Below the pieces are notes generated by a model, which was given only the letters and a program-made list of their open reading frames with translations, did no database searches and was not told where the DNA came from. The position numbers were made by a program, and so were the translations under genes. Below, piece after piece: positions 5,709 to 33,779 of a stretch of 64,000 nucleotides of DNA. The first letter of the stretch is position 1, and each line of letters begins with the position of its first letter. Origin of the DNA: Halarcobacter sp. (lineage in GTDB: Bacteria; Campylobacterota; Campylobacteria; Campylobacterales; Arcobacteraceae); assembly GCA_963676565.1 (NCBI GenBank), contig OY781089.1, forward strand, positions 2,272,001 to 2,336,000. The letters run 5' to 3'.

Positions 5709-5709
5709 A

Positions 5710-6330: not shown

Positions 6331-6390
6331 AGAATACCTTAACTTTTTTATTATTGAATTTATAGTAACATCCATGAAAAAAGAGTCTTT

Positions 6391-8920: not shown

Positions 8921-8922
8921 AT

Positions 8923-10185: not shown

Positions 10186-10189
10186 TTTA

Positions 10190-12652: not shown

Positions 12653-12653
12653 A

Positions 12654-14456: not shown

Positions 14457-14487
14457 ATTAATAATTATTCCTATTGATTTATTTTTT

Positions 14488-16395: not shown

Positions 16396-16418
16396 GTGTA
16401 ATATTTGTCCTATGTTTT

Positions 16419-16604: not shown

Positions 16605-16684
16605 ATTTATCCCCTCCTTTACAAAAATTTTTTGCGGATTATACTAAAAAAGGGATAAAAGTATGAAATTAAGAATTTTTTAAA

Positions 16685-21030: not shown

Positions 21031-21101
21031 TTTTATTCTTTTATAAAATTTTTTTGTTATTGTATTGAAAGTAAAATAAAATACAAAATTAAAGGCTTGA
21101 A

Positions 21102-21272
21102 ATGTTTGATAAAATCAAAAATATTTTCAAAAAAGAAAAAACCTATGAGTGTATAGTCTTTGATGGCAAAAAAATGAGTTATCCTAATTTGACAAAAAAG
21201 CAAATTGAAGAGATTGAAAACGACCCTAAATATGAAGCTTGGAGTGTAACTCTAAAAAGAGAAGAGAATTAA
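21102..21272 (+). CDS. small hypothetical protein (56 aa, below the ORF-track cutoff)
   Basis: Manual translation MFDKIKNIFKKEKTYECIVFDGKKMSYPNLTKKQIEEIENDPKYEAWSVTLKREEN; AAAGG RBS; GAAGAG/CTCTTC hairpin at the stop. Confidence 0.6.
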   Translation: MFDKIKNIFKKEKTYECIVFDGKKMSYPNLTKKQIEEIENDPKYEAWSVTLKREEN

Positions 21273-21284
21273 CTCTTCCCTTAT

Positions 21285-21668
21285 TTACCAATTTTTCCCT
21301 TTTCCAGGTCCCATACCTTTGCCCATTCCTTGTCCATTCATCATATTGTTTTTTTGATTTACTCTATTTTGAAATCTAGCTTGTTGATGAATTTGAAGTT
21401 CATTTTTTGAAATAATGCCATCACCATTTGTATCAACATCAGAAAAAGAAGGTGAATTCTTAGCATTCATCATAAGTCTACCTTGTTCTGCTTTTTGAGT
21501 CATTCTTTTTTCTTTTACTGAATCAAATTCAGCAGGACTAATTTGACCATCTTTATTTGTATCATAAGCTGAAAAAGCTACAGGACCAAAACTTGGTAAA
21601 GTTTCAGCAAACATAAATGTTGCACCAAATACCAACAAACCACTTAGAATAATTTTTGAAGTTTTCAT
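21285..21668 (-). CDS. secreted EF-hand protein with a Gly/Met-rich tail
   Basis: Signal peptide; DTNKDGQISPAEF and DTNGDGIISKNEL loops; AAGGAGG RBS. Confidence 0.85.
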   Translation of the reverse strand: MKTSKIILSGLLVFGATFMFAETLPSFGPVAFSAYDTNKDGQISPAEFDSVKEKRMTQKAEQGRLMMNAKNSPSFSDVDTNGDGIISKNELQIHQQARFQNRVNQKNNMMNGQGMGKGMGPGKGKNW

Positions 21669-21714
21669 AACATCCTCCTTGTAGTAGTTACATATAAGAG
21701 CTTCCTTTAATATA

Positions 21715-21746
21715 ATTATATAATTAATTTTTTAACCCAGTATTAA
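21715..21746 (-). promoter_or_regulatory. TTAAT-N6-TTAAA-N10-TATAAT promoter of the EF-hand gene
   Basis: Same spacing as the other sites in the cluster. Confidence 0.5.
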
Positions 21747-21764
21747 TATAAACTTGTTAAAAAC

Positions 21765-22499
21765 TTAAATTAACCTGTATTCAATAGGAACTCTAATTGT
21801 TATTGTTTTTTGAACTTTAGGGAAATTTGCTGAGGCACTATATATTGCTTCTATTGTGGACTTTTGTAGTAGTTTGTGTCCCTTGAGTGTTTTAACTCTT
21901 TTTATTTCACCAGATTTCGTTAAACAAAACTCCACCAAAACTTTACCCTCAATTTTAAGTTTTCTAGCTCTTTTTGAGTACATTATATTTTTTTGTATCT
22001 CTTTTTTTATCATATGCAAATGATTTGTTAAAAAATCTTCTTCATAATTAACTACTTTTTTTATAGGAGTAGGATTAATTGGTTTTTTTATTTGTTTAGT
22101 TACTACTTTCTCAATAGGGGTATTTTTAGGCTTATTTATTTTTTTAGGTATATTCTTTACAATCTCTTTTTTTGTTTTTTTAACAATTTTTTTCTTTTCT
22201 ACTTTTTTTACTATTTTCTCTTTTACTTTTGCCTTTACGATTTTTTTGGGTTCAATTTTCCTAGGCTTTGTTATAACTTTTTTAACTTTTTTTTCAACTA
22301 CTAGCTCTTTTGCTTTTGTCTGATTTTCTTGAACTTTTTTTTCAGGTATTGGTTTAACTATTTGAACATAGTTTAATCTAATTTTCTTTTCATCTTTTTT
22401 TTCAGACTGAAATTTTTCAAAAGGATTTGCAAATAAAAAAAGTGTGGCTATACTTACATAAATCAAAACTGTAAGAAAAAAAGAGTTTAAATATCTCAT
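21765..22499 (-). CDS. tonB: energy transducer TonB
   Basis: N-terminal TM helix, Lys/Pro-rich linker, Y...AR..KIEGKV.VEF C-terminal domain. Confidence 0.88.
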   Translation of the reverse strand: MRYLNSFFLTVLIYVSIATLFLFANPFEKFQSEKKDEKKIRLNYVQIVKPIPEKKVQENQTKAKELVVEKKVKKVITKPRKIEPKKIVKAKVKEKIVKKVEKKKIVKKTKKEIVKNIPKKINKPKNTPIEKVVTKQIKKPINPTPIKKVVNYEEDFLTNHLHMIKKEIQKNIMYSKRARKLKIEGKVLVEFCLTKSGEIKRVKTLKGHKLLQKSTIEAIYSASANFPKVQKTITIRVPIEYRLI

Positions 22500-22879
22500 T
22501 GTTGTTTCACCGTAACTATTGATATATTTTCAAAACTATTTGATTTTAAAGCATCTAAAATAGATACAAAAACTTCGAATTTAGCATCTTTATCACTATT
22601 TATTAAAATTGGTCTATCTTTTTCTTCCTGTGAAATCTTACTTAATAATTCTTCAACTATTAACTCTTCTTTATCAAGATAAATTTGTCCAGAATCTTTT
22701 ATATAAATACTTAACTCTTTTTTTATTTTTTGATTATCAGCTGAAGTTGCTTTTGGAAGAGATACAGGTATAACACCTTTAGCAATAAAAGTGGATGTCA
22801 TTAAAACTATTGCTAAAAGTACTAAAAGAACATCAATAAAAGGTATTACATTTATTGAATCATATTTCTTGATTTTCAT
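22496..22879 (-). CDS. exbD: ExbD
   Basis: INVIPFIDVLLVLL, LP.A, SDKDAKF. Confidence 0.9.
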   Translation of the reverse strand: MKIKKYDSINVIPFIDVLLVLLAIVLMTSTFIAKGVIPVSLPKATSADNQKIKKELSIYIKDSGQIYLDKEELIVEELLSKISQEEKDRPILINSDKDAKFEVFVSILDALKSNSFENISIVTVKQQ

Positions 22880-23285
22880 ATCTGCTTTCCAAAACTTCTG
22901 CGTATCGACTTAAGATATTATAAAAAACCATTGATACAATTGCCACAACTAAACCAACTGCAGTGGCCTTAAGTGCTAGGGCTAATGAACTCATAATTTT
23001 AGTTGCAACAATATCCCCTTCACTCATAGTCATAAAAGTTAACATAATAGCTAATACAGTACCAAGAAGTCCTATATAAGGTGAGTTAGAAGCGATAGTT
23101 CCAATAAAAGTTAAATTTTTTGTAAGTGCTACATCTAGTTGTTTTTTATTTTTAAATTTGTTTACATCAAGTTTTCTATAAAAAAAGAGTCTTTCTATAA
23201 AAAACATTACAGCTATGAAACTCATAAATACAAGTAATGCAATTACACCATAGTCAACTAGGTGTTTTAATAGTTCAATATTCAT
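22860..23285 (-). CDS. exbB: ExbB
   Basis: IASNSPYIGLLGTV, ALKATAVGLVVAI. Confidence 0.9.
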   Translation of the reverse strand: MNIELLKHLVDYGVIALLVFMSFIAVMFFIERLFFYRKLDVNKFKNKKQLDVALTKNLTFIGTIASNSPYIGLLGTVLAIMLTFMTMSEGDIVATKIMSSLALALKATAVGLVVAIVSMVFYNILSRYAEVLESRYENQEI

Positions 23286-23309
23286 TTTCTTCTCCTGTAC
23301 AGCATTTTA

Positions 23310-23341
23310 ATTTTATGATAGATGTGTTAATTTTGAGTTAA
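23310..23341 (-). promoter_or_regulatory. TTAAC-N6-TTAAC-N10-TAAAAT promoter of exbBD-tonB
   Basis: GTTAA at 23326 and 23337 (plus strand); -10 at 23310-23315. Confidence 0.6.
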
Positions 23342-24142
23342 TTACTCTGAATAAAAGTAAGAATCTACTCCCATTATTGCAGCCCCATATGAAGTTGTAA
23401 TTTGAGGATATTTTGGAATAAAAATTCTTTTGCCTAATTCATTTTCTATTGCATTTACTAAACCTTCATTTAAAGCAGGTCCACCATCAAAATATACGCC
23501 CTCTTTTACACCAACTCTTTTTACTAATTTAACAATTCTTTTAGCAATAGAATAATGAACACCACATACAATATCTTCAACACTATGATTATTTCCAAGT
23601 AAGCCAATAATTTCACTTTCTGCAAAAACTGCACAAGTACTACTAACACTTAAAGGTGTGCCTTTGGCTTTGAAATGTATTTCCCCAAGTTTATCAACAT
23701 CAATTTCAAGCTTTAAGGCTACTACATCTAAAAACTTTCCTGTTCCAGCTGCACATCTATCATTCATAGCAAAATTTGTAACATTTCCATCATTATCCAA
23801 AGAGATTGCTTTACTATCTTGTCCACCAATATTTATAATAGTTTTTATCTCTCCATACTCTTTCCCTGCAGCCCTAGCACCTATTGCATTTGCTGTTATC
23901 TCACTAATATTCTCATCTGCTTCTTTATAAAGTTTTCTTCCATAACCAGTAGAAACAGTGTAAACGACATCTTCAGGTGATATTTCAAGCTCTTTTAGTA
24001 AAAGTTCTAAAGTTTCTTGAGCGTATTTATAAAACATACTTCCACTAGCACTAGTTTTTGAACCTATTAAATTTTTATTTTCATCAATTATAGAAATTTT
24101 TATTGATGTTGAACCTATGTCAATCCCTACAAAATATTTCAC
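23342..24142 (-). CDS. ASKHA-type ATP-dependent [4Fe-4S] activator (HgdC/BadF/DCCP-reductase family)
   Basis: GIDIGSTSIK, STGYGR, IGGQDSK, MNDRCAAGTGKF, SSTCAVFAESE. Confidence 0.92.
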   Translation of the reverse strand: MKYFVGIDIGSTSIKISIIDENKNLIGSKTSASGSMFYKYAQETLELLLKELEISPEDVVYTVSTGYGRKLYKEADENISEITANAIGARAAGKEYGEIKTIINIGGQDSKAISLDNDGNVTNFAMNDRCAAGTGKFLDVVALKLEIDVDKLGEIHFKAKGTPLSVSSTCAVFAESEIIGLLGNNHSVEDIVCGVHYSIAKRIVKLVKRVGVKEGVYFDGGPALNEGLVNAIENELGKRIFIPKYPQITTSYGAAIMGVDSYFYSE

Positions 24143-25416
24143 TTTTTTACCCTTTTTCTTGTTTTTAAAGACTCTATAAAGGCTTCAATTCTTGTTGTTA
24201 ATTGACCACCTTGACTTGGACTGTAATCACTTTCGATATATAAAATAGGAATACCTTCTTTTTCCATAGCTTCTAAAACACTTCTTTGTTCAGCTTCATA
24301 AACAGTACAACCAGCAAATGCTTGATAGACAACACCATCTGCACTATATGTTTTAACTAAGTCTATAATACGCCGTATTCTGTCATCATTTTTTGTAAAT
24401 ATTGGACATGTACAAGCTTTTAAATACTTATCAGCCATAGAATCAAGCATATCATTTACAAACCACTCATCAACGGCAACTCTATCATTAAACATTCTAT
24501 TTGAACTACAAGTCTCATCTGCAACAATTATCCCATCTGACTCTTCAATTACTATTGGAACTTTATAATTTGGAAAAATAGGAGGAGAACCTGTATAAAC
24601 TATTCTTGGACTAACTTTCCCATTAACAAAAAGGTTTTCATCTTCTCTTTGTTTACACTCTTTCAAAAGATTTTCAACGGCATTAATCCATGAATCAATT
24701 TTGTCAAAAAAGAAAGCATTTGTAACAAAAAACATATCATTTCCACTTATTACAATATTTTTCTTTTTTCTATATTCACAAAGTTTATGATAAAGAGATT
24801 GTGCATAACCAATCTTTGCAATACTTTGTTTTAAACTTTTTTTATTTAGTTTTTTACCAGTTCTTTTTGAAAGATCTATTGAAAATTCTCTGATACTTCT
24901 TCTAAAATACTCTCTACTTATTTCACTTTCTTTAATTCTTGGAAAATCAACATCTACAACTTCATACCCAAAACTTTCAATAGTAACCCCTGCTTTTGTT
25001 TTTTGATCACATGTTGTTGGAGAATATATTAAATGAGGTTTATCAGAAAAATTCCCAGAAGCAAAATGTCCTACTGTTGCACGAACTAAAGGGCATGACT
25101 TTTGTGGCATATAATCACTACCTATTTCATCATCACTATAAAAGCCATTACATAATCTAATAGGAACAGCATCTAAAGCATATATAATCTCACTTGGAAT
25201 TTGAATACACATAATACCTACTTTTAATTTTCCTTCATGAAGTGACTTTTGTTTACAAAATACATTTTCAAATAACCTATAAAAATAATCCATAGCTTTA
25301 ATAGGGTTTTTAAAATCATCTTTTAGAGTATTTATAATTTTGATTGCTTCCATTGCTTTGTGTCTATTTTGTTTTTCCAATGGAGATTCAATTTCATGTT
25401 TTAATTTACTTGTCAT
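24139..25416 (-). CDS. 2-hydroxyacyl-CoA dehydratase-family Fe-S protein, double-cubane cluster protein (DCCP)-like
   Basis: Single ~420-aa subunit with Cys in GIMC, RLC, KSCP, TTCD, DETC, CTCP, GCTVY; C-terminal IESDYS..GQLTTRIEAFIE. Confidence 0.8.
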   Translation of the reverse strand: MTSKLKHEIESPLEKQNRHKAMEAIKIINTLKDDFKNPIKAMDYFYRLFENVFCKQKSLHEGKLKVGIMCIQIPSEIIYALDAVPIRLCNGFYSDDEIGSDYMPQKSCPLVRATVGHFASGNFSDKPHLIYSPTTCDQKTKAGVTIESFGYEVVDVDFPRIKESEISREYFRRSIREFSIDLSKRTGKKLNKKSLKQSIAKIGYAQSLYHKLCEYRKKKNIVISGNDMFFVTNAFFFDKIDSWINAVENLLKECKQREDENLFVNGKVSPRIVYTGSPPIFPNYKVPIVIEESDGIIVADETCSSNRMFNDRVAVDEWFVNDMLDSMADKYLKACTCPIFTKNDDRIRRIIDLVKTYSADGVVYQAFAGCTVYEAEQRSVLEAMEKEGIPILYIESDYSPSQGGQLTTRIEAFIESLKTRKRVKK

Positions 25417-26392
25417 TACTTTCCTTTATATTAGCAATACCCATTCTTTTTTCAAAACCTTCTTTTGTAGACGTAAAAGCTTTTATATTTAAAATATCAA
25501 AGTGTAAAACATCATCTTCAGGACATGCAGCAACGCATTTTAGACATAAAATACAATCATCCCTTAATATATTTATATCTGTTACATTATCAGCTATATC
25601 TTTTATTTGCATATCACAAACAGTATAACAATCACCACATCTAGTACATTTACTACCATCTTTTCTAAACTGAACAATTGAGATTTTTGAAAAGATATAA
25701 TGTAAAGCACTCATAGGACAGAAGAAACAAAAAAATCTTTTTTTAATAAAACTTCCAACAAAAAATAATCCAGCAAAAAATATCCCTAATGATGTTAAAA
25801 GTATTGCTGTTTTACTTGAAAAGTCAATTACCCATTGGGAAAAATCACCACTAAACATAGGTGTAATTATTCTTGCTGGACATATTTTACAAAAAGCTGC
25901 AGACCATTCTGAACCCATTAATCCCACACCCATAAGTAAAGGAAAAACTAAAACTATAAACAAAAATACATATTTTATTTTTGATAGCTTTTCAAATTGA
26001 TTTTGTGAATAGCTTGAATATCTAATACCAATTGATTTTCTAAGTTTTGTCATCCAATCTTGTAGTGTTCCAAAGGGACAAACATACCCACACCAAGCCT
26101 TATTTAAAAAAATAAACCAAAATAAGAAAACAAGAATTCCACTAATTACTGCAATTGAAGCACCACCAAGCAATACTTGAGTTGGCATTGACAATTGGTG
26201 TTGTAAAGGTATTAAATAACAAGCTCCAGCAGTTGTATCATTATAAGGACATGTAAAAATAGGTAGTTTAGAACCAAAATCTATTGCAAAATAACCACCA
26301 TAAATAAATAATACAAAAGTTAATACTTGAATGATATTTCTAAATCTGATTAGATTTACATTATTAACTGTTTTTTTTAACCTACTCAACAT
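25406..26392 (-). CDS. NapH/MauN-like membrane 4Fe-4S protein
   Basis: WCGYVCPFG, FCKICP, FCFFCP, CTRCGDCYTVC, CILCLKCVAACP. Confidence 0.85.
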   Translation of the reverse strand: MLSRLKKTVNNVNLIRFRNIIQVLTFVLFIYGGYFAIDFGSKLPIFTCPYNDTTAGACYLIPLQHQLSMPTQVLLGGASIAVISGILVFLFWFIFLNKAWCGYVCPFGTLQDWMTKLRKSIGIRYSSYSQNQFEKLSKIKYVFLFIVLVFPLLMGVGLMGSEWSAAFCKICPARIITPMFSGDFSQWVIDFSSKTAILLTSLGIFFAGLFFVGSFIKKRFFCFFCPMSALHYIFSKISIVQFRKDGSKCTRCGDCYTVCDMQIKDIADNVTDINILRDDCILCLKCVAACPEDDVLHFDILNIKAFTSTKEGFEKRMGIANIKESNDK

Positions 26393-29105
26393 ATCTTGGC
26401 TCTTTAAAAGGATTTGTACGATTTTTTCTAAATCTGTATATTATAAATCCTGCTAATATCATTGTTAAAATTAAAATTGTCAAAGCAAATGCGTAAGATT
26501 CATAATCACTTTTATTTGGATAATAGTATGCTGGATAAGTTAATATGAATTTGTCATTTCCAATATCATGTTCTAAAGTAAGTAAAAATTCCTGTTTAAA
26601 TCTTTTATTATACTCCTCCCAATTTGGGAAATAATCTCTTATAAGAGTTATTTTTGCTATACCATTTTCATCAGTTTTAAAACTTTTTACCCATCCACTT
26701 TGAAGTTTTATTTTAAGTAATGCATTTTTTAATGGTTTATTGTCAAATATAGCTTTGAATCTTAGGGTATCCCCCATACTTATTCTATAAAAAAAGCTAT
26801 CTTCATTTGCATCTTTAATTCTTATCAAGTCAATTCTTGAAACATTTTGATTTAACTCTTTTTTTATATCTTCACTATAGACATCTTCAGTTCCATGCTT
26901 TCCCACTAAAAACTCTAGTTTAGCTACTTTATAATAGTTATTGTCATTTAGTTTTGTTTTCTCTATTGCAAAAAGGTTATAATAACCATTGCCTGGAACT
27001 TCAAATTTGTAAAGGGTTTTGCCCCTTGATTTCTCTTCAATAATATCTTTTTCAGTTTGATTTTTATCAAACACATAAAAGCTAATATTTTTTGTAGGAT
27101 AAAGAGCTTTTTTACCTCTGTTTTCATAGGCTAGATATAGTTTTTTTGTTGGGATAACTTTTTTTGCTGATGGCTTACCTCCACCACCATGCATATGTCC
27201 ACCATACGATTTCTTTTTTGCAGTTGGATCTGTTAGAGACAAGTAAAACTCTTGTTTTGGATTTATAGAAGCTTTTTTACCCCAAGATTTTTTTGGTTTA
27301 AAATCTTCCATAGCTATTTGCATAGCTTTTTGGAAATCAACAACTTTACCACCATATTTTTTACTAAAAACGAAGGCATCTTTTTTGTTTGCAAAGGCAT
27401 ATTTACTAACCCTTGACATAGTACCTTTTTGTCTACTTCCAACTACATAAAAAGCACTTTTTGCATCAATAAACTTTAAAGTAGTTATATCAACTACTTT
27501 TATATCTTTTAAAGCTAGTTTTTTAATCTTTAAATCTTCAGTTAAACAATGAATAGAACAATATTGTCTTGGTTTACCATTAAGTGTAGCACTATGATTT
27601 GTTTTATAAAACATAGGCAAATTCATACCACAAACAACACCGCTAGTTTTATCTTTCCCTTCTTGAACCAAAGTTGCCTTTTTAAAAGGAACACTTTGAA
27701 ACATTTTCTTAGATGAAGAAGAACCATGTGAGTGCCCTCCTCTTTGTTTTGCACCATATTTTGAAAATATATATCCAGTATAAATATTAAGTCCAATATA
27801 AAATAAAATTACAAATGAAGCAAAGAAAAATCCAAATAGCTTTCTTAATTTTGTACTATCAATAAGTTTTATTCTTTTGTAAAGAATAATAAAAGCCCAA
27901 ATTACACCAATCCATTTAAATAGTTTAAAATAATGTAACCAAGCATCACCTCTTTTAGCTAATGGTGCAACATCAAAACTCATTCCAAAAGCTTGAGCAA
28001 AACCTTCAACAATTTTTGTATAATCTTTGATAAAAAACATCTCTAAAGTATGTCCTAAAGATGCAAAGATAAAAAGTGGAATAAAAGCAACACCAAGACT
28101 TGTAAAAATTGAATTAAATTCTTTTTTCAAAACCTTTGAAGCTAAATAAAGCCCTAAAAAAGCTATAGAGACAGTAACTAACAATGCATAAATAAAAGCA
28201 AAGCCACCTGCATATTCAGAAAGATTAAAAAACTCTGCTGTTCTATTCCAAATAAATTCATCAGCAATATTACTTCTATTTAAACCATGGGCAAATCCCA
28301 TAGATACAGGGATAGAAGCAAGGATTAAAATATATGTCCAAATTTCTGCATTTAAAAGTTTTAGCTTAGAGCCTAACTGTTCGGCAGGTTTAGTAAACTT
28401 GAATTTTACAGCTTCACAAGAAGTCGCACAATCCATACATAAAGTACAATCATCTGTTTGATTTTTTTTAGCAAAAGTAAAAGGTTTTAGATTATACTCA
28501 CATGCACTTGCACACTCAAATGTTTTACAATCTTTACAATGGTCTGTATATGTCTCTAATTTGGTAAAAGATAGTTTGTCATATGCTCTTGTAAGTGTAC
28601 CAATTGGACAAATATATTTACAATAACTCATATCTTTATAAATATAATACACAATAAAAGAAAGTAGTGTTAGTACAGAAAACATCAAAGCTGTATTAAA
28701 AGGAGACTTCCAAAAGCCATCAAAAGTATAATAAACTCCCCACCAACCAATCACTAATATGAAAATACCGATATATCTATTTTGCATCCATTTTGGCATC
28801 TTCTTTTTTAAACCTAATTTTGTAATATATTTTCCCATAAAACCATGGGGACAAACGCAACAAAAAATTCTTCCAAAAGATGGTAAAGTAACAACCATAA
28901 ATAAAGCCCAAAAAAGACCCCAAAAAAGTGCACCAGTAAATATATTATCTCTGCCAGGATGAACAAATCCAAAATAAATAGCATAAAAAAATAGTGCTGT
29001 AACAGTTAATCTAAGAATTAATAAAAAACTCTTATTTTTAAATAAAAAACCTAATATTGGTTTACCATAAATATCATTTTTATCACGTTTGATAAAATCT
29101 ATCAT
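26382..29105 (-). CDS. fusion of membrane polyferredoxin, NosL-like domain, periplasmic beta domain and C-terminal TM helix
   Basis: CCVCPHG, CKYICPIG, CKDCKTFEC, CTLCMDCATSC; NosL-like VVCGM..YCSIHC..GTMS; His/Gly linkers GGHSHG and GGHMHGGGG; FKTDENG. Confidence 0.8.
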   Translation of the reverse strand: MIDFIKRDKNDIYGKPILGFLFKNKSFLLILRLTVTALFFYAIYFGFVHPGRDNIFTGALFWGLFWALFMVVTLPSFGRIFCCVCPHGFMGKYITKLGLKKKMPKWMQNRYIGIFILVIGWWGVYYTFDGFWKSPFNTALMFSVLTLLSFIVYYIYKDMSYCKYICPIGTLTRAYDKLSFTKLETYTDHCKDCKTFECASACEYNLKPFTFAKKNQTDDCTLCMDCATSCEAVKFKFTKPAEQLGSKLKLLNAEIWTYILILASIPVSMGFAHGLNRSNIADEFIWNRTAEFFNLSEYAGGFAFIYALLVTVSIAFLGLYLASKVLKKEFNSIFTSLGVAFIPLFIFASLGHTLEMFFIKDYTKIVEGFAQAFGMSFDVAPLAKRGDAWLHYFKLFKWIGVIWAFIILYKRIKLIDSTKLRKLFGFFFASFVILFYIGLNIYTGYIFSKYGAKQRGGHSHGSSSSKKMFQSVPFKKATLVQEGKDKTSGVVCGMNLPMFYKTNHSATLNGKPRQYCSIHCLTEDLKIKKLALKDIKVVDITTLKFIDAKSAFYVVGSRQKGTMSRVSKYAFANKKDAFVFSKKYGGKVVDFQKAMQIAMEDFKPKKSWGKKASINPKQEFYLSLTDPTAKKKSYGGHMHGGGGKPSAKKVIPTKKLYLAYENRGKKALYPTKNISFYVFDKNQTEKDIIEEKSRGKTLYKFEVPGNGYYNLFAIEKTKLNDNNYYKVAKLEFLVGKHGTEDVYSEDIKKELNQNVSRIDLIRIKDANEDSFFYRISMGDTLRFKAIFDNKPLKNALLKIKLQSGWVKSFKTDENGIAKITLIRDYFPNWEEYNKRFKQEFLLTLEHDIGNDKFILTYPAYYYPNKSDYESYAFALTILILTMILAGFIIYRFRKNRTNPFKEPRYVE

Positions 29106-29114
29106 CTATATACC

Positions 29115-29771
29115 TTATAATGAAATTTTTCCAGCAACAACCATTGAACCAACAAAAATTAGTAATAGTGAAGCAAAAATCTGAATATACTTTGTGTATA
29201 CCTTGAATTGTTCTATTAATCCTTGAAATATTCTTCCAACAATTAATGTATAAAAAATAAAAGGAACTAACACGGCACCTAAGCCAAATAAAAGACCATT
29301 TAGAAATGAAAATAAATATGTTGTAGTGTTTGCACTTATTGTAATCAAAGTTAAGACGGGAACACATGGATTTAAAGAGACTAATGCCCCTATTCCAAAA
29401 ATTCCGAAAGTTCCCTTTGGTTTTTTTGAAGTTGGTACTTTTGATTTGCATTTTGTTTCAACAATTAATGTTGTATAAAGCAATCCTAGTCCAATAAGAA
29501 CAGTAAAACTTCCTAGAATCAATTGAAAAATAGTATTATCATTAAGAATTGATTTTATAAATAATGAACTAGAAAAAGCAATTAAAGATATAAAGATATA
29601 AGTAACTACTCTTCCTAAACTAAATGGTAATACTACTTTTAAAGATGAAACACTTTTTGTAGAATTAGATATTAAAAGTGGAGCCAAAAAAGGCATACAT
29701 GAAAACATGCATGCAGTAGCTCCATATGATAATCCTATCAAAAAAAGTGAGAAAAAAGTTAAACTCTCCAC
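29115..29771 (-). CDS. DsbD_2/CcdA-like membrane protein
   Basis: ACMFSCMP, FSLGRVVTY, LNPCVP, LFGLG. Confidence 0.8.
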   Translation of the reverse strand: MESLTFFSLFLIGLSYGATACMFSCMPFLAPLLISNSTKSVSSLKVVLPFSLGRVVTYIFISLIAFSSSLFIKSILNDNTIFQLILGSFTVLIGLGLLYTTLIVETKCKSKVPTSKKPKGTFGIFGIGALVSLNPCVPVLTLITISANTTTYLFSFLNGLLFGLGAVLVPFIFYTLIVGRIFQGLIEQFKVYTKYIQIFASLLLIFVGSMVVAGKISL

Positions 29772-29786
29772 TATCTTTTTTCTTTA

Positions 29787-31880
29787 TTAAAATTTATATC
29801 TAAGACCTGCATAAAATGCTCTTGGAGGGGCAACTCTTATTGTTGCATCACTCATATCACTTCCATAAGATACATTCACAAATTGATAATAGTTTTTATT
29901 AAATAAATTTGTAATTTTTCCAAAAAGCTCTAAATTATTAGAGATTTTATATTTACCTCTTAGATTAACTACAGCATAACCTGATTGTTTGTATAAGTTA
30001 GCTTCATCTGCATAATAACTACTTTTAGCAGTTATTTCTGGAGACAATACGAACTTTTGATTAACATTCCAATCTAATCCAATATTTATTGTGTGTTTTG
30101 AAGTTCTAGGTACAGTATTGCCATCTAACTCAATTTCAGGTGCGCCACCATCATTTGGATTAATTGAATAATCTTTTAATTTAGCCATTAAATACGTATA
30201 TGCAATATTATATGAAAAAGCATCATTTACTTTTGTATTAACGGCTAATTCAATACCCCTACTTCTCATATCTCCAACATTATCTATTGCTAAATATTCA
30301 TCGTCATCTGTTGACCATAAATAACTTCCAGCTTTTTTACCAATATAATCAACTCTATCTAATTGATAAATTGATAAATCATAGTTTGTATTGTTAAATC
30401 TACCTTTTATTCCAATCTCATAATTGTACGTTTTTTCACTATCTAATTCTGTTGGAATATCAAGGCTTGGATCATCTTGTAAAAGACTTAGATTTCCACT
30501 AATTTGACCAGCAGTAGGTGCTCTAAAACCACTTGAGTAACTAGTATATAAATAATGTTCATCTGCAAAGTTATAATTTAGACCTATATTAAATGAACTT
30601 TCATTATAGCTTGGATCTACATTTAAAGAACTATCCATATGATTCTTATAATCATATGTCAAGTGATCGTATCTATAATTCCCTACAATATTAAGTTTTT
30701 CTGTTAATTTTGATTGTAGTTCTAAATAAACAGCTGCAATATTTTCATCTGTATTACTATCTGATAAAAGAGTCCCAGCAGTAGTAATACCTGTCCATGG
30801 TGATCCATAGGTAACCCTTTGTACAGATTCATTATCCTGTGAGTTTTTTTCTAAGTTTATACCCACCATTGCAGCTATGCTTCCAAAAGATTTTCTATAT
30901 TCTGATTTAAATGTATTTTGAATCCATTTTTCATCATTATTTTTTAAATGAAAAGTGTCAGTACTATCTCTAGATGATCTGCTTGTTGTATCATCTTGAT
31001 ATCTAGAAACAGTTGCCATAAAATTTGAAGTATCATCAATATCATTTGAATAAGTTAAAAATGTTTTAATTAATGTTGTATCATAGAATCCAGCATAAGA
31101 TACCTCATTAAAACTTTTAGGATCATTTATAGCTGCATCAATCCCATGAACACTAGTTCCATCTCCAGACTTTCTTTTTGTATAATCAAGTCCAAAAGTT
31201 AAGTCGCTATTATCATTTAAATAATATTGATATTTTCCATTAACTGACTTGTGATTTAAGTATGCTTCATCCCAATAACCATCTGTATCTCTATATGTAG
31301 CTTGTAGTTGCAGTGAACTATCATCAAAACTTTGATTCGTTCCAATTAAAAATCTGTTAAATCCAAAACTACCTAATTCAGTTTCAAGTTTTGATTCACT
31401 AAGACCTTTTGGTCTTTTTGTTGTAATTACTATAGCACCAGAAATTGCATCATTCCCATAAAGATAACTAGCACTACCTTTAATAACTTTTATTGATTCA
31501 ATATTGTCTAAATCAAGATTTGCCTTTCCAGTAGTTTCTTGAACAGGTACACCATCAATAACAATTGCAACACCAGGTCTTTCACCCATATACATTTGAT
31601 TATCAATACCTCTGATATGTATTTTAACTTTATCATTACCCACATTTGAGGCAGTAATTCCAGGAATCGTATTCAAAATATCTTCAACATTAGTTGGATC
31701 AATTTTTTCTATTTGTTTATTATCAATAATAAAAGTGTTAGATGAACTATTCAATTTTTCTTCATATTTGTCATCAATTGTTGAGGATACAACACTTATA
31801 GACTCTAACTCAACAGCATTCAAACTATTAATCAATATTAATGAAGCTACTAGACTCATAGATATTCTTACTTTAGGCAT
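29787..31880 (-). CDS. TonB-dependent receptor
   Basis: Signal peptide, IHIRG..VIDGVP, IKVIKGSASYLYG, C-terminal YAGLRYKF. Confidence 0.92.
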   Translation of the reverse strand: MPKVRISMSLVASLILINSLNAVELESISVVSSTIDDKYEEKLNSSSNTFIIDNKQIEKIDPTNVEDILNTIPGITASNVGNDKVKIHIRGIDNQMYMGERPGVAIVIDGVPVQETTGKANLDLDNIESIKVIKGSASYLYGNDAISGAIVITTKRPKGLSESKLETELGSFGFNRFLIGTNQSFDDSSLQLQATYRDTDGYWDEAYLNHKSVNGKYQYYLNDNSDLTFGLDYTKRKSGDGTSVHGIDAAINDPKSFNEVSYAGFYDTTLIKTFLTYSNDIDDTSNFMATVSRYQDDTTSRSSRDSTDTFHLKNNDEKWIQNTFKSEYRKSFGSIAAMVGINLEKNSQDNESVQRVTYGSPWTGITTAGTLLSDSNTDENIAAVYLELQSKLTEKLNIVGNYRYDHLTYDYKNHMDSSLNVDPSYNESSFNIGLNYNFADEHYLYTSYSSGFRAPTAGQISGNLSLLQDDPSLDIPTELDSEKTYNYEIGIKGRFNNTNYDLSIYQLDRVDYIGKKAGSYLWSTDDDEYLAIDNVGDMRSRGIELAVNTKVNDAFSYNIAYTYLMAKLKDYSINPNDGGAPEIELDGNTVPRTSKHTINIGLDWNVNQKFVLSPEITAKSSYYADEANLYKQSGYAVVNLRGKYKISNNLELFGKITNLFNKNYYQFVNVSYGSDMSDATIRVAPPRAFYAGLRYKF

Positions 31881-32006
31881 TTCTTCTCCATATTTTAATT
31901 ACCACTTTAAAATATGAAAGAATATTTCAGTATAATAGAAGTGGTGTTAATTCACTATCTTCCATCTATCTAGGTCGCCAAACTTTATTTAGATGGGAGA
32001 TTTATT
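31881..32006 (-). promoter_or_regulatory. structured ~125-nt 5' leader of the TonB receptor operon
   Basis: Stems ATCTCCCATCTA/TAGATGGAAGAT, ACCACTT/AAGTGGT and TGAAA/TTTCA between the promoter and the GGAG RBS. Confidence 0.5.
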
Positions 32007-32012
32007 GTTGTA

Positions 32013-32044
32013 ATATTAATTAGAGTCTGTTAATTAAGTGTTAA
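32013..32044 (-). promoter_or_regulatory. TTAAC-N6-TTAAC-N10-TAATAT promoter
   Basis: GTTAA at 32029 and 32040 (plus strand); -10 at 32013-32018. Confidence 0.6.
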
Positions 32045-32089
32045 TCTTTTGATAAGTCTTATATTTTTTTTAAGTATTTAAGTTAATTA

Positions 32090-32953
32090 TTAGTTTATGA
32101 TGTTTTTAAAGTTTAGAATAAATTTATTTCCATTGGTTAATGGCTCAATTTTTATGGCTATTTTATTTTTGTCACAAAACTCTTTTACCATAGAAAGTCC
32201 TAATCCAAATCCATGTTTAGAAGAATCTTCTTGAAAAAATTTATCAAAAATGATAAATAAATTCTTTGTATCAATCTCTTTTCCCGTATTATAAATAGAA
32301 AAAAGATTATTACTATATGTGATTTGTATTAAACCATTTTCTTCAAGATTATATTTTAAAGCATTTGAGATAAGATTATCAAGCATTTTAGAAAAACCAT
32401 TTAAATCAGTTTTTAATTGACAATCTTCAATTTTAACTTCTATTTTTATATCTTTTTTCAAATCTTCGAACTTATCTAAACTTTTGTAAGTAATCTCTTT
32501 TAGATTAAAAGTAGAAACATCAATCTTATCAATCTCTTTTTTTATTTGATATTCCATATCTTCATAAAGTTTTAATAATTCATTTGAAGCTTTTTTTATT
32601 CTACTTAATCTTTTTAAAGCTTTTTCATCTGTAATTTTTTTCTCTAACATTTGTGTATTTAAATTGATTGTTGAAACTGGGATGTTTAATTCATGTAATG
32701 TCTCTTTTACAGTCTTTTGTAGGTTTTCATCACTTTTAAAAAGTGGTTCAAAAATAGATTTACTTAATAAAAGATATAAACCTAGACCAAAAATTAATAC
32801 TGTTAATGTAATAAGCATAAATGTATCTTGATTAAAACCAATATAAGAGTTTAAATAAAAGTTTAAAAGCAATGATAAAAGTAAAACGAATACAACAATT
32901 ATTGAATTAGTGATTAAAAAGTTTCTTTTTTTATAATTCAATTTTATATCCAA
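32090..32953 (-). CDS. sensor histidine kinase with two closely spaced TM helices
   Basis: HELNIP, NLISNALKY, GFGLGL. Confidence 0.9.
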   Translation of the reverse strand: MDIKLNYKKRNFLITNSIIVVFVLLLSLLLNFYLNSYIGFNQDTFMLITLTVLIFGLGLYLLLSKSIFEPLFKSDENLQKTVKETLHELNIPVSTINLNTQMLEKKITDEKALKRLSRIKKASNELLKLYEDMEYQIKKEIDKIDVSTFNLKEITYKSLDKFEDLKKDIKIEVKIEDCQLKTDLNGFSKMLDNLISNALKYNLEENGLIQITYSNNLFSIYNTGKEIDTKNLFIIFDKFFQEDSSKHGFGLGLSMVKEFCDKNKIAIKIEPLTNGNKFILNFKNIIN

Positions 32954-33590
32954 TACCTTTTATATTTTTGATTGAGTCTTTTCCAAGAAGTTTTTTAATA
33001 TTGTTAATATAAACTCTGATTGAACCTTCACTATACCCTTCTGAACATCCCCAAAGTCTATCAATAATCATCTCTTTAGTAATAATTTTTTCTTTTTTTT
33101 CTAAAAATAGCTCAAGTAAATCAATAACCTTTCCTGCAAGATTTATATCATTACCATTTGATAAAACTCTCCTATTCATTGGGTCAAAGGTCAAATCTTC
33201 AGTTAATTTAATATCTTCAAATGATTTCCCACTTCTTTTTAATAAAGATTGGATTCGAAGAAGAAGTTCATCAAGGTCAATTGGCTTTTTTAAATAATCA
33301 TCACAGCCAGTTAAAAACCCTTGGGTTAATTTATCTTTATCTTTATATGAAGTTAGATAGATTGCAGGGGTATTATCTCCAGAGTTTCTCAACTCTTTTA
33401 ATAAACTAATTCCATCTAAAAGAGGAACATTGATATCAAAAAGATATAAATCAAAATTATTCTCATATGTAATACTTAAAACCTCTTCACCATTTGATGC
33501 AGTTTTTATTTCAAAACCTTCATCTTCTAAGAAATCTTCAAGTGTTTCAAGAAATAGTTCATCATCTTCTAAAACAAGTATTTTGTGCAA
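32931..33590 (-). CDS. OmpR-family response regulator
   Basis: LEDD, FDINVP, DDYLKKP, winged helix IRVYI..IKK..GIGY. Confidence 0.92.
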   Translation of the reverse strand: MHKILVLEDDELFLETLEDFLEDEGFEIKTASNGEEVLSITYENNFDLYLFDINVPLLDGISLLKELRNSGDNTPAIYLTSYKDKDKLTQGFLTGCDDYLKKPIDLDELLLRIQSLLKRSGKSFEDIKLTEDLTFDPMNRRVLSNGNDINLAGKVIDLLELFLEKKEKIITKEMIIDRLWGCSEGYSEGSIRVYINNIKKLLGKDSIKNIKGIGYKIEL

Positions 33591-33603
33591 GGAGTCTCCA
33601 AAA

Positions 33604-33724
33604 AATATTTATTTTATTATATTCTTACTAAGTTAAAATACTATTAATTTGTGACTTAAGTTAATATTTATTTTATTATATTCTTACTAAGTTAAAATAC
33701 TATTAATTTGTGACTTAAGTTAAT
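33604..33724. repeat. perfect 59-bp tandem duplication of the response-regulator promoter
   Basis: Unit 33604-33662 repeated at 33663-33721; each copy carries TTAAT-N6-TTAAC-N10-TATAAT on the minus strand. Confidence 0.92.
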
Positions 33725-33779
33725 TTTTTACTTTATTTATTTATCATTATTTTTAAAGTAATAAAATATAGGCAAAGAG

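What the first reader, a model, noticed from the sequence alone, without database searches (positions are those of the whole stretch)
21285..33590. Candidate undescribed system: TonB-dependent import coupled to an ATP-driven, DCCP-like low-potential reductase
Seen: six closely spaced or overlapping minus-strand genes (TonB receptor, DsbD_2-like Cys membrane protein, 907-aa polyferredoxin-NosL fusion, NapH-like 4Fe-4S protein, one HgdB/FldC-family subunit, HgdC-family ATPase), then exbB-exbD-tonB and a secreted EF-hand protein, with a two-component pair upstream. Known: true 2-hydroxyacyl-CoA dehydratases are usually two-subunit and sit with CoA-transferase and acyl-CoA dehydrogenase genes, which are absent here. 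The single-subunit double-cubane cluster protein (DCCP) of Carboxydothermus hydrogenoformans works with an ATPase reductase and reduces small molecules in vitro. The Cys spacing here (GIMC, RLC, SCP, TTCD, ETC, CTCP, GC..Y) resembles my recollection of DCCP. Inference: a scarce outer-membrane substrate (metal chelate or cofactor) is imported and reductively processed, with electrons carried by two membrane Fe-S proteins. This would give a DCCP-like pair a physiological context in a probable microaerophile.
Basis: partly seen in the sequence, partly recalled or inferred. Interest (0 to 1): 0.85.

Follow-up and report, generated by a model that had tools for sequence, protein, structure and literature searches.

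The report
TonB-linked double-cubane reductase operon
A tightly packed operon, kept together in many sulfur-cycle bacteria, joins an outer-membrane importer and periplasmic metal-binding domains to membrane iron-sulfur proteins and an ATP-powered "double-cubane" reductase whose natural job is unknown, giving that enzyme a testable role, most likely reductive harvesting of a metal.

Summary
All genes named are at the stated coordinates, overlapping or 9-56 nt apart. The 425-aa HGD-D protein is DCCP-like. Its best solved relatives are 7YYL/6ENO (E 1e-53, against 1e-16 for HadC). All seven motif cysteines are present and invariant in 24 relatives. It scores 316 bits against the NF040772 cut-off of 350, so it is a sister clade.

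The linkage is conserved both ways.
- Starting from the DCCP-like protein, 19 of 19 orthologous loci in 17 other Campylobacterota genomes carry the NapH-like gene and a TonB receptor.
- Starting from the NapH-like protein, 64 of 64 metagenome loci with enough DNA carry the DCCP-like gene, some at 45-67% G+C.

The fusion's C-terminus has the Zcp/DUF4198 periplasmic metal-binding fold. A complex model places the NapH-like ferredoxin domain on the DCCP-like protein (0.68, best control 0.00).

Best reading: an ATP-driven reductase wired through membrane Fe-S proteins to TonB-dependent reductive metal acquisition. The metal, the direction of electron flow and expression remain unshown.

My four searches naming the gene set or DCCP found no paper describing this arrangement. 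Earlier notes of this scan report it on other genomes.

The parts
32931..33590 (-). OmpR-family response regulator, likely lineage-specific regulator of the operon
   Evidence: Response_reg and Trans_reg_C. Orthologous RRs (41-67% identity) lie beside the cluster in some loci, for example L015, L079, L124 and L153. RR was seen in 18 of 116 loci.
32090..32953 (-). Histidine kinase with two membrane helices and only about a 14-residue outer loop (no periplasmic sensor domain)
   Evidence: HisKA and HATPase_c. Hydropathy scan gives helices at 12-30 and 45-63.
31881..32089 (-). Promoter region with three ATTAACA(C/G) repeats at 32045-32038, 32034-32027 (11 bp apart) and 31951-31944; candidate response-regulator sites
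   Evidence: Read from the sequence. TTAACAC-type words also lie upstream of the receptor gene in L153 and L156. No Rfam match. Function is inferred.
29787..31880 (-). TonB-dependent outer-membrane receptor, 697 aa, no cysteine
   Evidence: Plug and beta-barrel domains. TIGR01783 siderophore subfamily scores 215 bits against a cut-off of 223.5. Nearest solved relatives are YncD and PqqU, E 4e-25 and 2e-24.
29115..29771 (-). Six-helix DsbD_2/CcdA-like membrane protein with invariant C21 and C25 (helix 1) and C136 (helix 4, NPCxP)
   Evidence: PF13386, 63 bits. Invariant cysteines in 13 sequences. The profile's only solved relative is CcdA 5VKV, E 4.7e-4.
26382..29105 (-). 907-aa fusion. It comprises a NapH-like membrane polyferredoxin (2 CxxxCP motifs and 2 [4Fe-4S] motifs), a further helical membrane domain (invariant H273, H352), a His-rich linker, a NosL/TRASH-like domain (C492, C516, C520), a GHMHGG motif, a DUF4198-like beta-sandwich and a C-terminal anchor.
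   Evidence: Pfam. Alignment A1 of 13 sequences. AF2 model, mean pLDDT 63.8. Foldseek matches Zcp 9MHL (E 8e-9, TMt 0.62) and the Ni-bound DUF4198 protein 9GCB. NosL 7OG7, E 2.5e-5.
25406..26392 (-). NapH-like four-helix polyferredoxin. All 16 cysteines are invariant, including four (C48, C58, C168, C171) plus H65 on the predicted periplasmic face.
   Evidence: Fer4_5 and dicluster domains. NapH models below cut-off. Invariance in 32 sequences. The two outer-face cysteine pairs are absent from this genome's NosH and from the fusion's NapH-like part. Topology by hydropathy and the positive-inside rule is inferred.
24139..25416 (-). DCCP-like (double-cubane-type) catalytic protein, 425 aa, single subunit
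   Evidence: HGD-D, 304 bits. NF040772, 316.4 bits against a cut-off of 350. 7YYL and 6ENO at E 7e-54 and 2e-53, against HadC at 1e-16. Seven-Cys motif.
23342..24142 (-). HgdC/HadI-type ATPase with bridging [4Fe-4S] cysteines (C130, C170): the electron-energising partner
   Evidence: BcrAD_BadFG, 186 bits. TIGR00241, 226.6 bits against a cut-off of 125.4. HadI 4EHT at E 1e-64 and DCCP-R 7YYL_E at E 4.5e-36, with both Cys motifs aligned to HadI.
22860..23285 (-). ExbB
   Evidence: MotA_ExbB. ExbB was seen in 41 of 116 loci.
22496..22879 (-). ExbD
   Evidence: ExbD. Seen in 39 of 116 loci.
21765..22499 (-). TonB
   Evidence: TonB_C. The TonB-like cluster was seen in 46 of 116 loci.
21285..21668 (-). 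Secreted EF-hand protein with a Met/Gly-rich tail; membership doubtful
   Evidence: EF-hand families. No BLAST relative at 1e-8 in any of the 116 loci. One unrelated EF-hand gene lies beside the cluster in L148.

Best explanation
This is one conserved envelope-spanning system. A TonB/ExbBD-energised receptor brings a scarce metal species into the periplasm. There a membrane-anchored DUF4198-type domain captures it; here that domain is fused to a NosL-like domain and preceded by a His/Met motif.

In the cytoplasm the HgdC-type ATPase uses ATP to push low-potential electrons into the double-cubane-type cluster of the DCCP-like protein. That protein sits on the ferredoxin domain of the NapH-like membrane protein. 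The NapH-like protein has cysteine sites on both membrane faces. Together with the polyferredoxin fusion it links this reductase to the periplasmic metal site, so the metal is reduced and freed from its carrier. The Cys-lined DsbD_2/CcdA-like protein either takes the ion inward or supplies thiol reductant. In many lineages an RND pump is added, possibly to return the emptied carrier.

Shown: gene content, DCCP-like identity, invariant synteny, and the fold of the periplasmic domain. Modelled: the DCCP-NapH contact. Inferred: the metal (my odds: Cu about 35%, Fe about 25%, Ni/Co about 15%, other about 25%), outward electron flow, and the roles of DsbD_2 and RND.
For: Gene content and tight spacing.

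DCCP-like identity.

Synteny from three starting points:
- The fusion as query gave 17 genome loci. The full order receptor-DsbD_2-fusion-NapH-DCCP-ATPase is present in L001, L003, L005, L006, L008, L009 and L013.
- The DCCP-like protein as query over 401 Campylobacterota genomes gave orthologues at 56-76% identity in 17 genomes besides G000, then a gap to 33% or less. In the 19 loci, NapH-like is adjacent in 19/19, a receptor is present in 19/19, DsbD_2 in 18/19, the ATPase in 17/19, and a fusion or DUF4198-like anchored protein in 19/19.
- The NapH-like alignment as query gave 80 metagenome loci. DCCP-like lies downstream in 64/64, the ATPase in 59/59 and a fusion or DUF4198-like gene upstream in 67/67 of those with enough DNA. 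In the 31 loci with 6 kb on both sides, DsbD_2 is present in 31/31 and a receptor in 27/31.

Clustering of all 1350 ORFs shows no other family in more than 18 of the 116 loci.

The periplasmic domain has the fold of Zcp, solved with Zn, Cu or Co, and of a Ni-bound DUF4198 protein. Zcp binds metal through H29, H31 and H142 (PMC12663993, passages read). Here a conserved [H/M]x[H/M] motif and one invariant His are present.

DUF4198 proteins occur with TonB receptors and membrane reductases in iron-regulated clusters, and NapH-like proteins are proposed transmembrane electron carriers (bioRxiv 10.1101/2021.01.07.425746, passages read).

Complex model of DCCP-like with NapH-like: score 0.68 against a best control of 0.00. 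The mark was reached by 116 of 157 solved complexes and 2 of 215 mismatched pairs. The runs agree in at least 90% of contacts and the partner's pLDDT is at least 77. My own alignments were used, so the counts hold only roughly. The interface joins NapH residues 246-258 and 285-291 (cluster cysteines C249, C252, C255, C286, C290) to DCCP-like residues 310-334, next to cluster ligand C337. It does not use the C-terminal helix, which binds the ATPase in 7YYL (PMC9351452, passages read).

No solved structure covers the NapH-like membrane part. In that one search I found no solved look-alike, so a pass from memory seems unlikely.

The four outer-face cysteines are invariant and specific to this NapH-like family.
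Against: - There are no expression or co-transcription data (searches gave nothing usable).
- No metal is identified. By eye I saw no Fur-, Zur- or NikR-type box; no systematic scan was made. No riboswitch was found in the window or in 27 loci.
- The receptor is nearest to YncD/PqqU and siderophore types. The copper-receptor model matches only 30 bits.
- NosZ, a large copper sink, is present in only 10 of the 18 carrier genomes, against 149 of 401 overall.
- The NosL domain is missing from 4 of 11 full-length fusions.
- The DUF4198 match is by fold. Pfam scores stay under the cut-off, a sequence profile finds no Zcp, and the AF2 model is mediocre overall (pLDDT 63.8).
- No membrane-embedded cofactor is demonstrated, so transmembrane electron transfer is conjecture, and the model cannot tell the direction of flow.
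- A DCCP acting as an electron relay has no precedent. Solved DCCP reduces small molecules at the cluster (PMC7317905).
Confidence: 0.5

Rival explanations
1. Mer-like logic with a cytoplasmic reaction. The imported species is a soft metal or metalloid such as selenium. It is bound by the periplasmic Cys/His/Met domains and handed through the Cys-lined DsbD_2-like protein into the cytoplasm. There it is reduced at the double-cubane cluster itself. The NapH-like protein only anchors the enzyme at the entry point or feeds it electrons.
For: Solved DCCP reduces small molecules at its cluster (PMC7317905).

In this same genome the canonical DCCP (454 bits) and its ATPase lie beside a Sec-containing selD and are followed by MerT-like and HMA genes. 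That is a transporter-plus-reductase layout.

A preprint reports 955 of 970 strong DCCPs in SelD-containing assemblies (bioRxiv 10.1101/2022.07.06.499078, passages read).

The DsbD_2-like protein has three invariant cysteines. UreH-family permeases are putative Ni or Co importers (PMC2667541). That PF13386 covers UreH is recalled, not tested.
Against: The NapH-like protein has invariant cysteine sites on the predicted outer face, and this needs explaining.

The modelled interface puts a NapH [4Fe-4S] motif beside a cluster ligand of the DCCP-like protein, as for electron exchange.

The only solved relative of the DsbD_2-like protein is the thiol-disulfide carrier CcdA.

Minimal variants hold a receptor and a short polyferredoxin without any DCCP in the DNA held (L004, L012, L014).
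Confidence: 0.22
2. Inward electron supply. The NapH-like protein and the fusion are quinol- or periplasm-facing dehydrogenases that feed electrons to the ATPase and the DCCP-like protein. This is a membrane-bound substitute for ferredoxin or flavodoxin. The DCCP-like enzyme then reduces an unknown cytoplasmic substrate, and the TonB genes import that substrate or a cofactor.
For: NapH is regarded as a quinol-binding subunit (bioRxiv 10.1101/2021.01.07.425746).

Archerase ATPases need an electron donor, normally ferredoxin or flavodoxin (PMC7317905).

The complex model supports contact but not direction.
Against: The modelled contact is with the DCCP-like protein, not the ATPase. ATPase-NapH binding was not tested.

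The constant presence of a periplasmic metal-binding domain and a receptor is left unexplained.

No cytoplasmic substrate-handling enzyme or inner-membrane importer for a large molecule recurs in the 116 loci.
Confidence: 0.15
3. The 425-aa protein is a subunit of a true 2-hydroxyacyl-CoA dehydratase or benzoyl-CoA reductase, and its position next to transport genes is incidental.
For: Pfam files it under HGD-D. The ATPase is closest to HadI (E 1e-64).
Against: - There is only one HGD-D gene and no second subunit.
- No CoA-transferase or acyl-CoA dehydrogenase occurs in the 61 window ORFs scanned.
- HadC and BzdN match at E 1e-16 and 3e-19, against 1e-53 for DCCP.
- Seven-Cys motif is present instead of three.
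- The neighbours are invariant in every locus with enough DNA.
Confidence: 0.02

Closest known systems
DCCP / DCCP-R of Carboxydothermus hydrogenoformans (PDB 6ENO, 7YYL)
   Same: Both have a single HGD-D-type subunit, all seven motif cysteines, an N-terminal extension of similar length and an adjacent archerase-type ATPase. DCCP is the best solved relative.
   Different: - It scores below the NF040772 cut-off (316 against 350). Identity is about 31% to the canonical DCCP of the same genome and 33% or less to those of the sampled genomes.
- Two motif spacings differ by one and two residues.
- The ATPase is nearer to HadI than to DCCP-R.
- It is always encoded after a NapH-like membrane protein that is modelled to bind it.
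- It sits in a TonB and periplasmic-metal context, whereas DCCP_Ch has no known physiological context.
NapH / NosH / NosR-type membrane polyferredoxins
   Same: Four membrane helices, CxxxCP motifs and two C-terminal [4Fe-4S] motifs.
   Different: - Scores lie far below the NapH cut-offs (80.6 against 234).
- It has extra invariant cysteine pairs and a His on the predicted outer face, which this genome's NosH lacks.
- No NapG, NapA or NosZ partner lies in the cluster.
- It lacks the FMN-binding domain of NosR.
PepSY-like / DUF4198 / TonB-receptor clusters and periplasmic ferric-siderophore reduction (FpvGHJK and FoxB are recalled, not read)
   Same: Both combine an outer-membrane receptor, an inner-membrane electron carrier and a periplasmic DUF4198 metal-binding protein, which is the logic of reductive metal release in the periplasm.
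   Different: The electron carrier here is Fe-S based (NapH-like), not PepSY or haem. No ApbE or flavinylated partner is present. An ATP-driven DCCP-type reductase is attached, which no such system has. Iron regulation is not shown here.
Zcp of Neisseria gonorrhoeae (DUF4198; PDB 9MHL and others)
   Same: Same fold (Foldseek E 8e-9, TMt 0.62), an N-terminal HxH-like motif and a later invariant His.
   Different: Here the domain is tethered by a C-terminal membrane helix and mostly fused to a polyferredoxin. His and Met interchange in the motif. There is no detectable sequence match. Zcp is a soluble zinc buffer with no redox partner.
CcdA / DsbD thiol-disulfide carriers and UreH-type Ni/Co permeases
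   Same: Six helices, with a Cys in helix 1 and in a PCxP-like motif of helix 4. CcdA is the only solved relative. It belongs to Pfam DsbD_2.
   Different: It has a third invariant Cys (CxxxC in helix 1). No thioredoxin-like partner is in the cluster. No NCBIfam model matches. Transport versus reductant relay is undecided.

Membership tests
Double-cubane cluster protein (DCCP; NF040772 / cluster IV of IPR010327) | Seven-Cys motif CX19CX18-19CX29CX166-170CX32-34CX32C | tested here: met
   C70, C89, C108, C136, C303, C337 and C370 are all present and invariant in 24 sequences. The spacings are 18/18/27/166/33/32, so two gaps are one and two residues short of the published ranges.
Double-cubane cluster protein (DCCP; NF040772 / cluster IV of IPR010327) | Score over the curated equivalog cut-off of NF040772 | tested here: not met
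   316.4 bits against a cut-off of 350. The other DCCP of the same genome scores 454.2.
Double-cubane cluster protein (DCCP; NF040772 / cluster IV of IPR010327) | Closer to solved DCCP than to dehydratase or benzoyl-CoA reductase subunits | tested here: met
   7YYL_C at 7e-54 and 6ENO_A at 2e-53, against BzdN 3e-19, HadC 1e-16 and MbdN 5e-10.
Double-cubane cluster protein (DCCP; NF040772 / cluster IV of IPR010327) | Single catalytic subunit encoded next to an archerase-type ATPase | tested here: met
   There is one HGD-D gene, overlapping by 4 nt a gene that scores 226.6 bits on TIGR00241 (cut-off 125.4).
Double-cubane cluster protein (DCCP; NF040772 / cluster IV of IPR010327) | [quoted passage not shown] | not testable with these tools
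   This needs purified protein, with EPR or Mossbauer spectroscopy or a structure, and activity assays.
2-hydroxyacyl-CoA dehydratase / benzoyl-CoA reductase | Two homologous HGD-D subunits, each with three Cys ligands | tested here: not met
   Only one HGD-D ORF lies in the cluster, and the only other one in the genome is the canonical DCCP.
2-hydroxyacyl-CoA dehydratase / benzoyl-CoA reductase | Neighbouring CoA-transferase or acyl-CoA metabolism genes | tested here: not met
   None occurs among the 61 window ORFs scanned. None recurs in the 116 loci.
Archerase ATPase (HgdC / HadI / DCCP-R) | ASKHA fold family above cut-off and the two cluster-bridging cysteines | tested here: met
   TIGR00241 is above cut-off. 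C130 and C170 lie in motifs aligned to the same motifs of HadI 4EHT.
NapH quinol dehydrogenase subunit | Score over the NapH/MauN family cut-offs and a Nap context | tested here: not met
   NF007013 scores 80.6 against 234 and TIGR02163 scores 76.2 against 213. No nap genes lie in the cluster.
DUF4198 periplasmic metal-binding proteins (Zcp type) | Pfam PF10670 over the gathering score | tested here: not met
   19.5 bits against 34 in the window. Relatives reach at most 29.8 bits.
DUF4198 periplasmic metal-binding proteins (Zcp type) | The fold, and a three-residue His site with an N-terminal HxH | tested here: inconclusive
   The fold match is clear (E 8e-9, TMt 0.62). An [H/M]x[H/M] motif and an invariant His exist. 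No residue-level superposition was available.
NosL copper chaperone | NosL domain over cut-off, in a nos context | tested here: inconclusive
   The domain is met (59.8 bits against 24; 7OG7 at E 2.5e-5). However, it is fused here and lies outside the genome's nos cluster. It is absent from 4 of 11 full-length fusions.

The most novel reading that the evidence does not exclude
Here the double-cubane protein is not a small-molecule reductase. It is an ATP-charged electron injector. It docks on a NapH-like membrane protein that carries cysteine-bound sites on both faces of the membrane. It thereby delivers very-low-potential electrons to the periplasm. There a tethered DUF4198/NosL module uses them to strip a metal (Cu, Fe, Co or Ni) from otherwise inert carriers imported by a TonB-dependent receptor, and the emptied carrier is pumped back out by the RND protein. 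This would be the first physiological role for a DCCP and the first ATP-driven periplasmic reductase.
Probability: 0.3. Interest if true: 0.9.

Novelty: new variant of a known kind. Interest (0 to 1): 0.72.

Why it matters
The authors who discovered double-cubane cluster proteins describe them as defined by their cofactor, with no known physiological function (PMC7317905). This operon gives a distinct DCCP clade a fixed set of partners: a membrane Fe-S protein modelled to bind it, a periplasmic metal-binding domain, a Cys-lined membrane protein and a TonB-dependent receptor. It occurs in cultivable sulfur-cycle bacteria and in higher-G+C lineages. The open question therefore becomes testable with knock-outs, metal-limitation growth and a defined three-protein electron-transfer assay.

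If the reductive-acquisition reading is right, it would also show how bacteria of sulfidic, metal-poor habitats pay ATP to obtain a trace metal.

Tried and rejected
- **RNA evidence.** No RNA holder was listed for the stretch. Four RNA runs of a species label that holds a near-identical stretch gave 0, 1, 0 and 2 partly fitting reads. This is no test of expression.
- **Riboswitches.** There was no Rfam match in 21000-34000 at E up to 1, none in the whole window at gathering scores, and no cobalamin or other metal riboswitch in 27 related loci. The only matches there were RNase P, one c-di-GMP-I riboswitch and a tRNA.
- **Copper via NosZ.** Carriers with NosZ number 10 of 18, against 149 of 401 in the sample. 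This is too weak to support or exclude copper, and related genomes are not independent.
- **Sequence link of the C-terminal domain to Zcp.** The profile search found nothing relevant.
- **EF-hand protein as a member.** No BLAST relative occurs in any locus.
- **Two-component pair as a constant member.** It is present in only a minority of loci.
- **Promoter and terminator scan.** Counts were no higher than in shuffles (77 against a mean of 80 for promoters; 5 against 3.2 for terminators).
- **Literature.** 'double-cubane' with 'TonB' gave 0 papers. NosL/NapH/TonB/Campylobacterota gave 4 papers, none relevant by title or abstract. Dehydratase with genus names and TonB listed no paper holding the dehydratase term. 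Pfam names in pairs gave 8 papers, none on this cluster. YjiM/YjiL gave no functional study in the listing. Supplements of the preprints were not open to me and may list such clusters.
- **True dehydratase.** Rejected; see the membership test.

Full report
**The observation**

Pfam assigns them as follows:
- a response regulator and a histidine kinase
- a TonB-dependent receptor (Plug and barrel)
- a DsbD_2 membrane protein
- a 907-aa protein with Fer4_5, NosL and a weak DUF4198 match
- a NapH-like protein (Fer4_5 and dicluster domains)
- an HGD-D protein
- a BcrAD_BadFG ATPase
- ExbB, ExbD and TonB
- an EF-hand protein

From the receptor to the ATPase, the genes overlap by 4-11 nt or lie 9-15 nt apart. 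G+C is about 28% throughout. No CoA-transferase or acyl-CoA dehydrogenase domain appears in the 61 window ORFs scanned.

**The HGD-D protein is DCCP-like**

Against all solved chains, its best matches are the double-cubane cluster protein of C. hydrogenoformans (7YYL_C at 7e-54, 6ENO_A at 2e-53). BzdN (3e-19) and HadC (1e-16) fall far behind.

NCBIfam's double_cubane model is the top hit at 316.4 bits, under its cut-off of 350.

The published seven-Cys motif (PMC7317905, passages read) is complete: C70, C89, C108, C136, C303, C337 and C370. Two spacings are one and two residues short. All seven are invariant in 24 aligned sequences, which include the canonical DCCP of the same genome.

The ATPase passes TIGR00241. 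It aligns best with HadI (1e-64) and less well with DCCP-R (4.5e-36), and both cluster-cysteine motifs are kept.

I therefore file the pair as a sister clade of DCCP/DCCP-R, not as a proven member.

**The genes belong together**

*Query 1: the 907-aa fusion against one genome per species.* This gave 17 loci, all titled as Campylobacterota MAGs: Arcobacteraceae, Sulfurimonas, Nitratifractor, Sulfurospirillum, Helicobacteraceae and Sulfurovum. BLAST of their ORFs gave the following:
- Seven loci have the full order receptor, DsbD_2, fusion, NapH-like, DCCP-like, ATPase.
- One (L015) has the receptor after the ATPase.
- Six are cut by contig ends.
- Three (L004, L012, L014) are minimal variants, with a short 482-aa polyferredoxin beside a receptor, TonB or RND gene and no DCCP in the DNA held.

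*Query 2: the DCCP-like protein over 401 sampled Campylobacterota genomes.* This gave a bimodal result. Nineteen matches at 56-76% identity lie in 17 genomes besides G000. Nothing follows until 33% or less, where the canonical DCCPs and other HGD-D proteins sit. In the 19 loci:
- The NapH-like gene is adjacent in 19.
- A receptor is present in 19.
- DsbD_2 is present in 18.
- The ATPase is present in 17. The two without it are second copies, in genomes whose first copy has one.
- A fusion or a separate DUF4198-like anchored protein is present in 19.

*Query 3: the NapH-like alignment against metagenome contigs.* This gave 285 relatives, of which the best 80 were kept. Among loci with enough flanking DNA:
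- The DCCP-like gene follows in 64 of 64.
- The ATPase follows in 59 of 59.
- A fusion or DUF4198-like gene precedes in 67 of 67.
- Among the 31 loci with 6 kb on both sides, DsbD_2 is in 31, a receptor in 27, ExbB in 20 and an RND pump in 15.

Fifteen of the 80 loci have 45-67% G+C. The five-gene core therefore probably exists outside the low-G+C Campylobacterota, although I could not name those organisms.

Contigs from similar samples may be redundant. L005 and L115, for example, share an identical RND gene.

Clustering all 1350 ORFs of the 116 loci shows no further family in more than 18 loci. The system is therefore made only of these parts.

**Anatomy of the parts**

*The fusion.* Its first 450 residues are highly conserved. 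Two CxxxCP motifs (C82/C85, C162/C166), eight cysteines of two [4Fe-4S] motifs, and H87, H273 and H352 are invariant in 13 sequences.

The NosL/TRASH-like domain (C492, C516, C520) is present in 7 of 11 full-length forms. It is absent from the three Sulfurimonas forms and the A. butzleri form.

The constant periplasmic part is the C-terminal beta-sandwich with its membrane anchor. The AF2 model has mean pLDDT 63.8, but this domain and the second membrane domain score 75-92. In that model the domain matches Zcp with zinc, copper or cobalt bound (E 8e-9, TMt 0.62) and a nickel-bound DUF4198 protein. Zcp is a periplasmic metal-capture protein with a three-His site that includes H29 and H31 (PMC12663993).

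Here the domain is preceded by a conserved G-[H/M]-M-[H/M]-G motif and contains one invariant His. Interchange of His and Met is, from general knowledge of CusF/CopC-type sites, typical of copper sites. This is a lead, not a test.

In some lineages the domain is a separate 308-361-aa anchored protein, one type of which carries an HHINCC motif.

*The NapH-like protein.* It has 16 cysteines, all invariant in 32 sequences. By hydropathy and the positive-inside rule, C48, C58, H65, C168 and C171 lie on the outer face. These insertions are absent from this genome's NosH and from the fusion's NapH-like part.

*The DsbD_2-like protein.* It has invariant C21 and C25 in helix 1 and C136 in an NPCxP motif of helix 4. 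Its only solved relative is CcdA.

*The receptor.* It contains no cysteine. It is nearest to the siderophore subfamily (215 bits against 223.5) and to YncD/PqqU.

**A modelled contact**

The NapH-like gene always directly precedes the DCCP-like gene, even in copies without their own ATPase. I therefore spent the one complex job on that pair, each given as an alignment.

The verdict was 'supports binding'. The score was 0.68 against a best control of 0.00. The mark was reached by 116 of 157 solved complexes and 2 of 215 mismatched pairs. The runs agree in at least 90% of contacts, and the partner's pLDDT is at least 77. The counts hold only roughly, because my own alignments were used.

The interface joins NapH-like residues 246-258 and 285-291, which hold C249, C252, C255, C286 and C290, to DCCP-like residues 310-334 next to the ligand C337. 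[quoted passage not shown] That helix is not in the modelled interface, so both partners could bind at once.

No solved structure covers the NapH-like membrane part. In that one search I found no solved look-alike, so a pass from memory seems unlikely. This remains a model, not a measurement, and it says nothing about the direction of electron flow.

**Mechanism**

The best-supported reading is reductive metal acquisition.
- The receptor imports a scarce metal species.
- The tethered DUF4198-type domain, with NosL in many forms, captures it.
- The ATPase and the DCCP-like protein generate low-potential electrons.
- The NapH-like protein and the fusion connect them to the periplasm.
- The DsbD_2-like protein moves either the ion or thiol reductant.
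- The RND pump, where present, may return the carrier.

The nearest analogues are the PepSY-like/DUF4198/TonB clusters proposed for periplasmic iron reduction, and the proposal that NapH-like proteins carry electrons across the membrane (bioRxiv 10.1101/2021.01.07.425746).

**Attempts to name the metal**

These failed.
- NosZ is present in 10 of 18 carrier genomes, against 149 of 401 overall.
- No riboswitch was found in the window or in 27 loci.
- The kinase has no periplasmic sensor domain.
- Regulation differs by lineage. Here there are ATTAACA repeats 11 bp apart, with similar words in L153 and L156. In a 38-42% G+C lineage there is a TGGC-N8-TGC sigma-54-like element with an upstream palindrome. 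Both were read by eye.

Copper is favoured by the NosL domain, by the His/Met motif, and by a copper-type receptor with two NosL lipoproteins next to the cluster in L008/L009. Iron is favoured by the known contexts of DUF4198. Cobalt or nickel is favoured weakly by the UreH link (PMC2667541) and by cobalamin genes nearby.

**Rivals**

- A Mer-like scheme, in which the species is carried into the cytoplasm and reduced at the cluster, fits the canonical DCCP locus of this genome. That locus lies beside selD, MerT-like and HMA genes.
- An inward electron supply from quinol is also possible.
- A true dehydratase is excluded by the membership tests.

**Novelty**

My literature searches found no description of the cluster.

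Earlier notes of this scan report the same kind of operon on six other genomes with similar readings. My tests here are independent of them, but the idea is not new to the scan.

I rate it a new variant of known kinds: DCCP/DCCP-R, and reductive TonB-dependent metal uptake. The combination itself is undescribed.

Noticed in passing
Own genome G000:C1 about 1958700-1964100 (locus L035 7624-13027), outside the window: The genome's canonical DCCP (454 bits on NF040772) and its ATPase are transcribed divergently from a selD with an in-frame TGA. They are followed by transglutaminase-like, MerT-like and HMA-domain genes. This layout fits the reported DCCP-SelD co-occurrence and suggests a selenium or soft-metal role for canonical DCCPs.
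   Followed up: partly
Own genome: L032 (C1:1458001-1477000), L033 (3073001-3091000), L034 (2851001-2867000): The genome holds 12 NosL-domain matches. Besides a nos cluster (NosZ, NosD, NosG/H-like, NosF, NosY, NosL), a module occurs three times. It consists of a double-NosL protein, a roughly 100-aa ORF, an FtsX permease, an ABC ATPase and a roughly 320-aa protein without a Pfam match.
   Followed up: partly
window 690-17898: This stretch holds a cobalamin salvage and lower-ligand cluster: CobS, CobQ, CobU, a nitroreductase-family gene, CbiB and CbiA. It also holds a BtuFCD-like ABC importer and two TonB-dependent receptors (12657-14456, 14491-16395). Upstream of these lie a canonical DsbD_2 protein (16688-17395, 165 bits) and a 167-aa ORF without a family. 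The same pair of genes sits directly upstream of the cluster in L015. No cobalamin riboswitch reaches Rfam's gathering score anywhere in the window.
   Followed up: partly
The genome search, genus g14 (about 30 genomes): An HGD-D-family match of about 30% identity carries one in-frame TAG at a similar relative position in some 30 genomes of one genus. This could be two adjacent genes, a shared break or a read-through. I did not examine it.
   Followed up: no
L148 12900-13574 (-) and window 21285-21668 (-): A secreted EF-hand protein lies at the edge of the cluster both in the window and in a distant 42% G+C metagenome locus. The two show no BLAST similarity to each other.
   Followed up: no
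L144, L146, L148, L150, L152, L155, about 40-70 nt upstream of the DUF4198-like gene: A conserved TGGCTTAAAT-N-ATGCTT element resembling a sigma-54 promoter is present. In several of these loci a GTCATATCCC...GGGATATGAC palindrome lies further upstream, suggesting control by an enhancer-binding protein in that lineage.
   Followed up: no
Own genome G000:C1:1992297-1993211 and 1958723-1959640: There are two selD copies, each with one in-frame TGA (selenocysteine-type SelD).
   Followed up: no
window 38543-39208 (-) and 47657-48409 (-): A Cu-oxidase_4 (laccase-like/YfiH) gene and a TerB-DnaJ fusion lie elsewhere in the window. No link to the cluster was seen.
   Followed up: no
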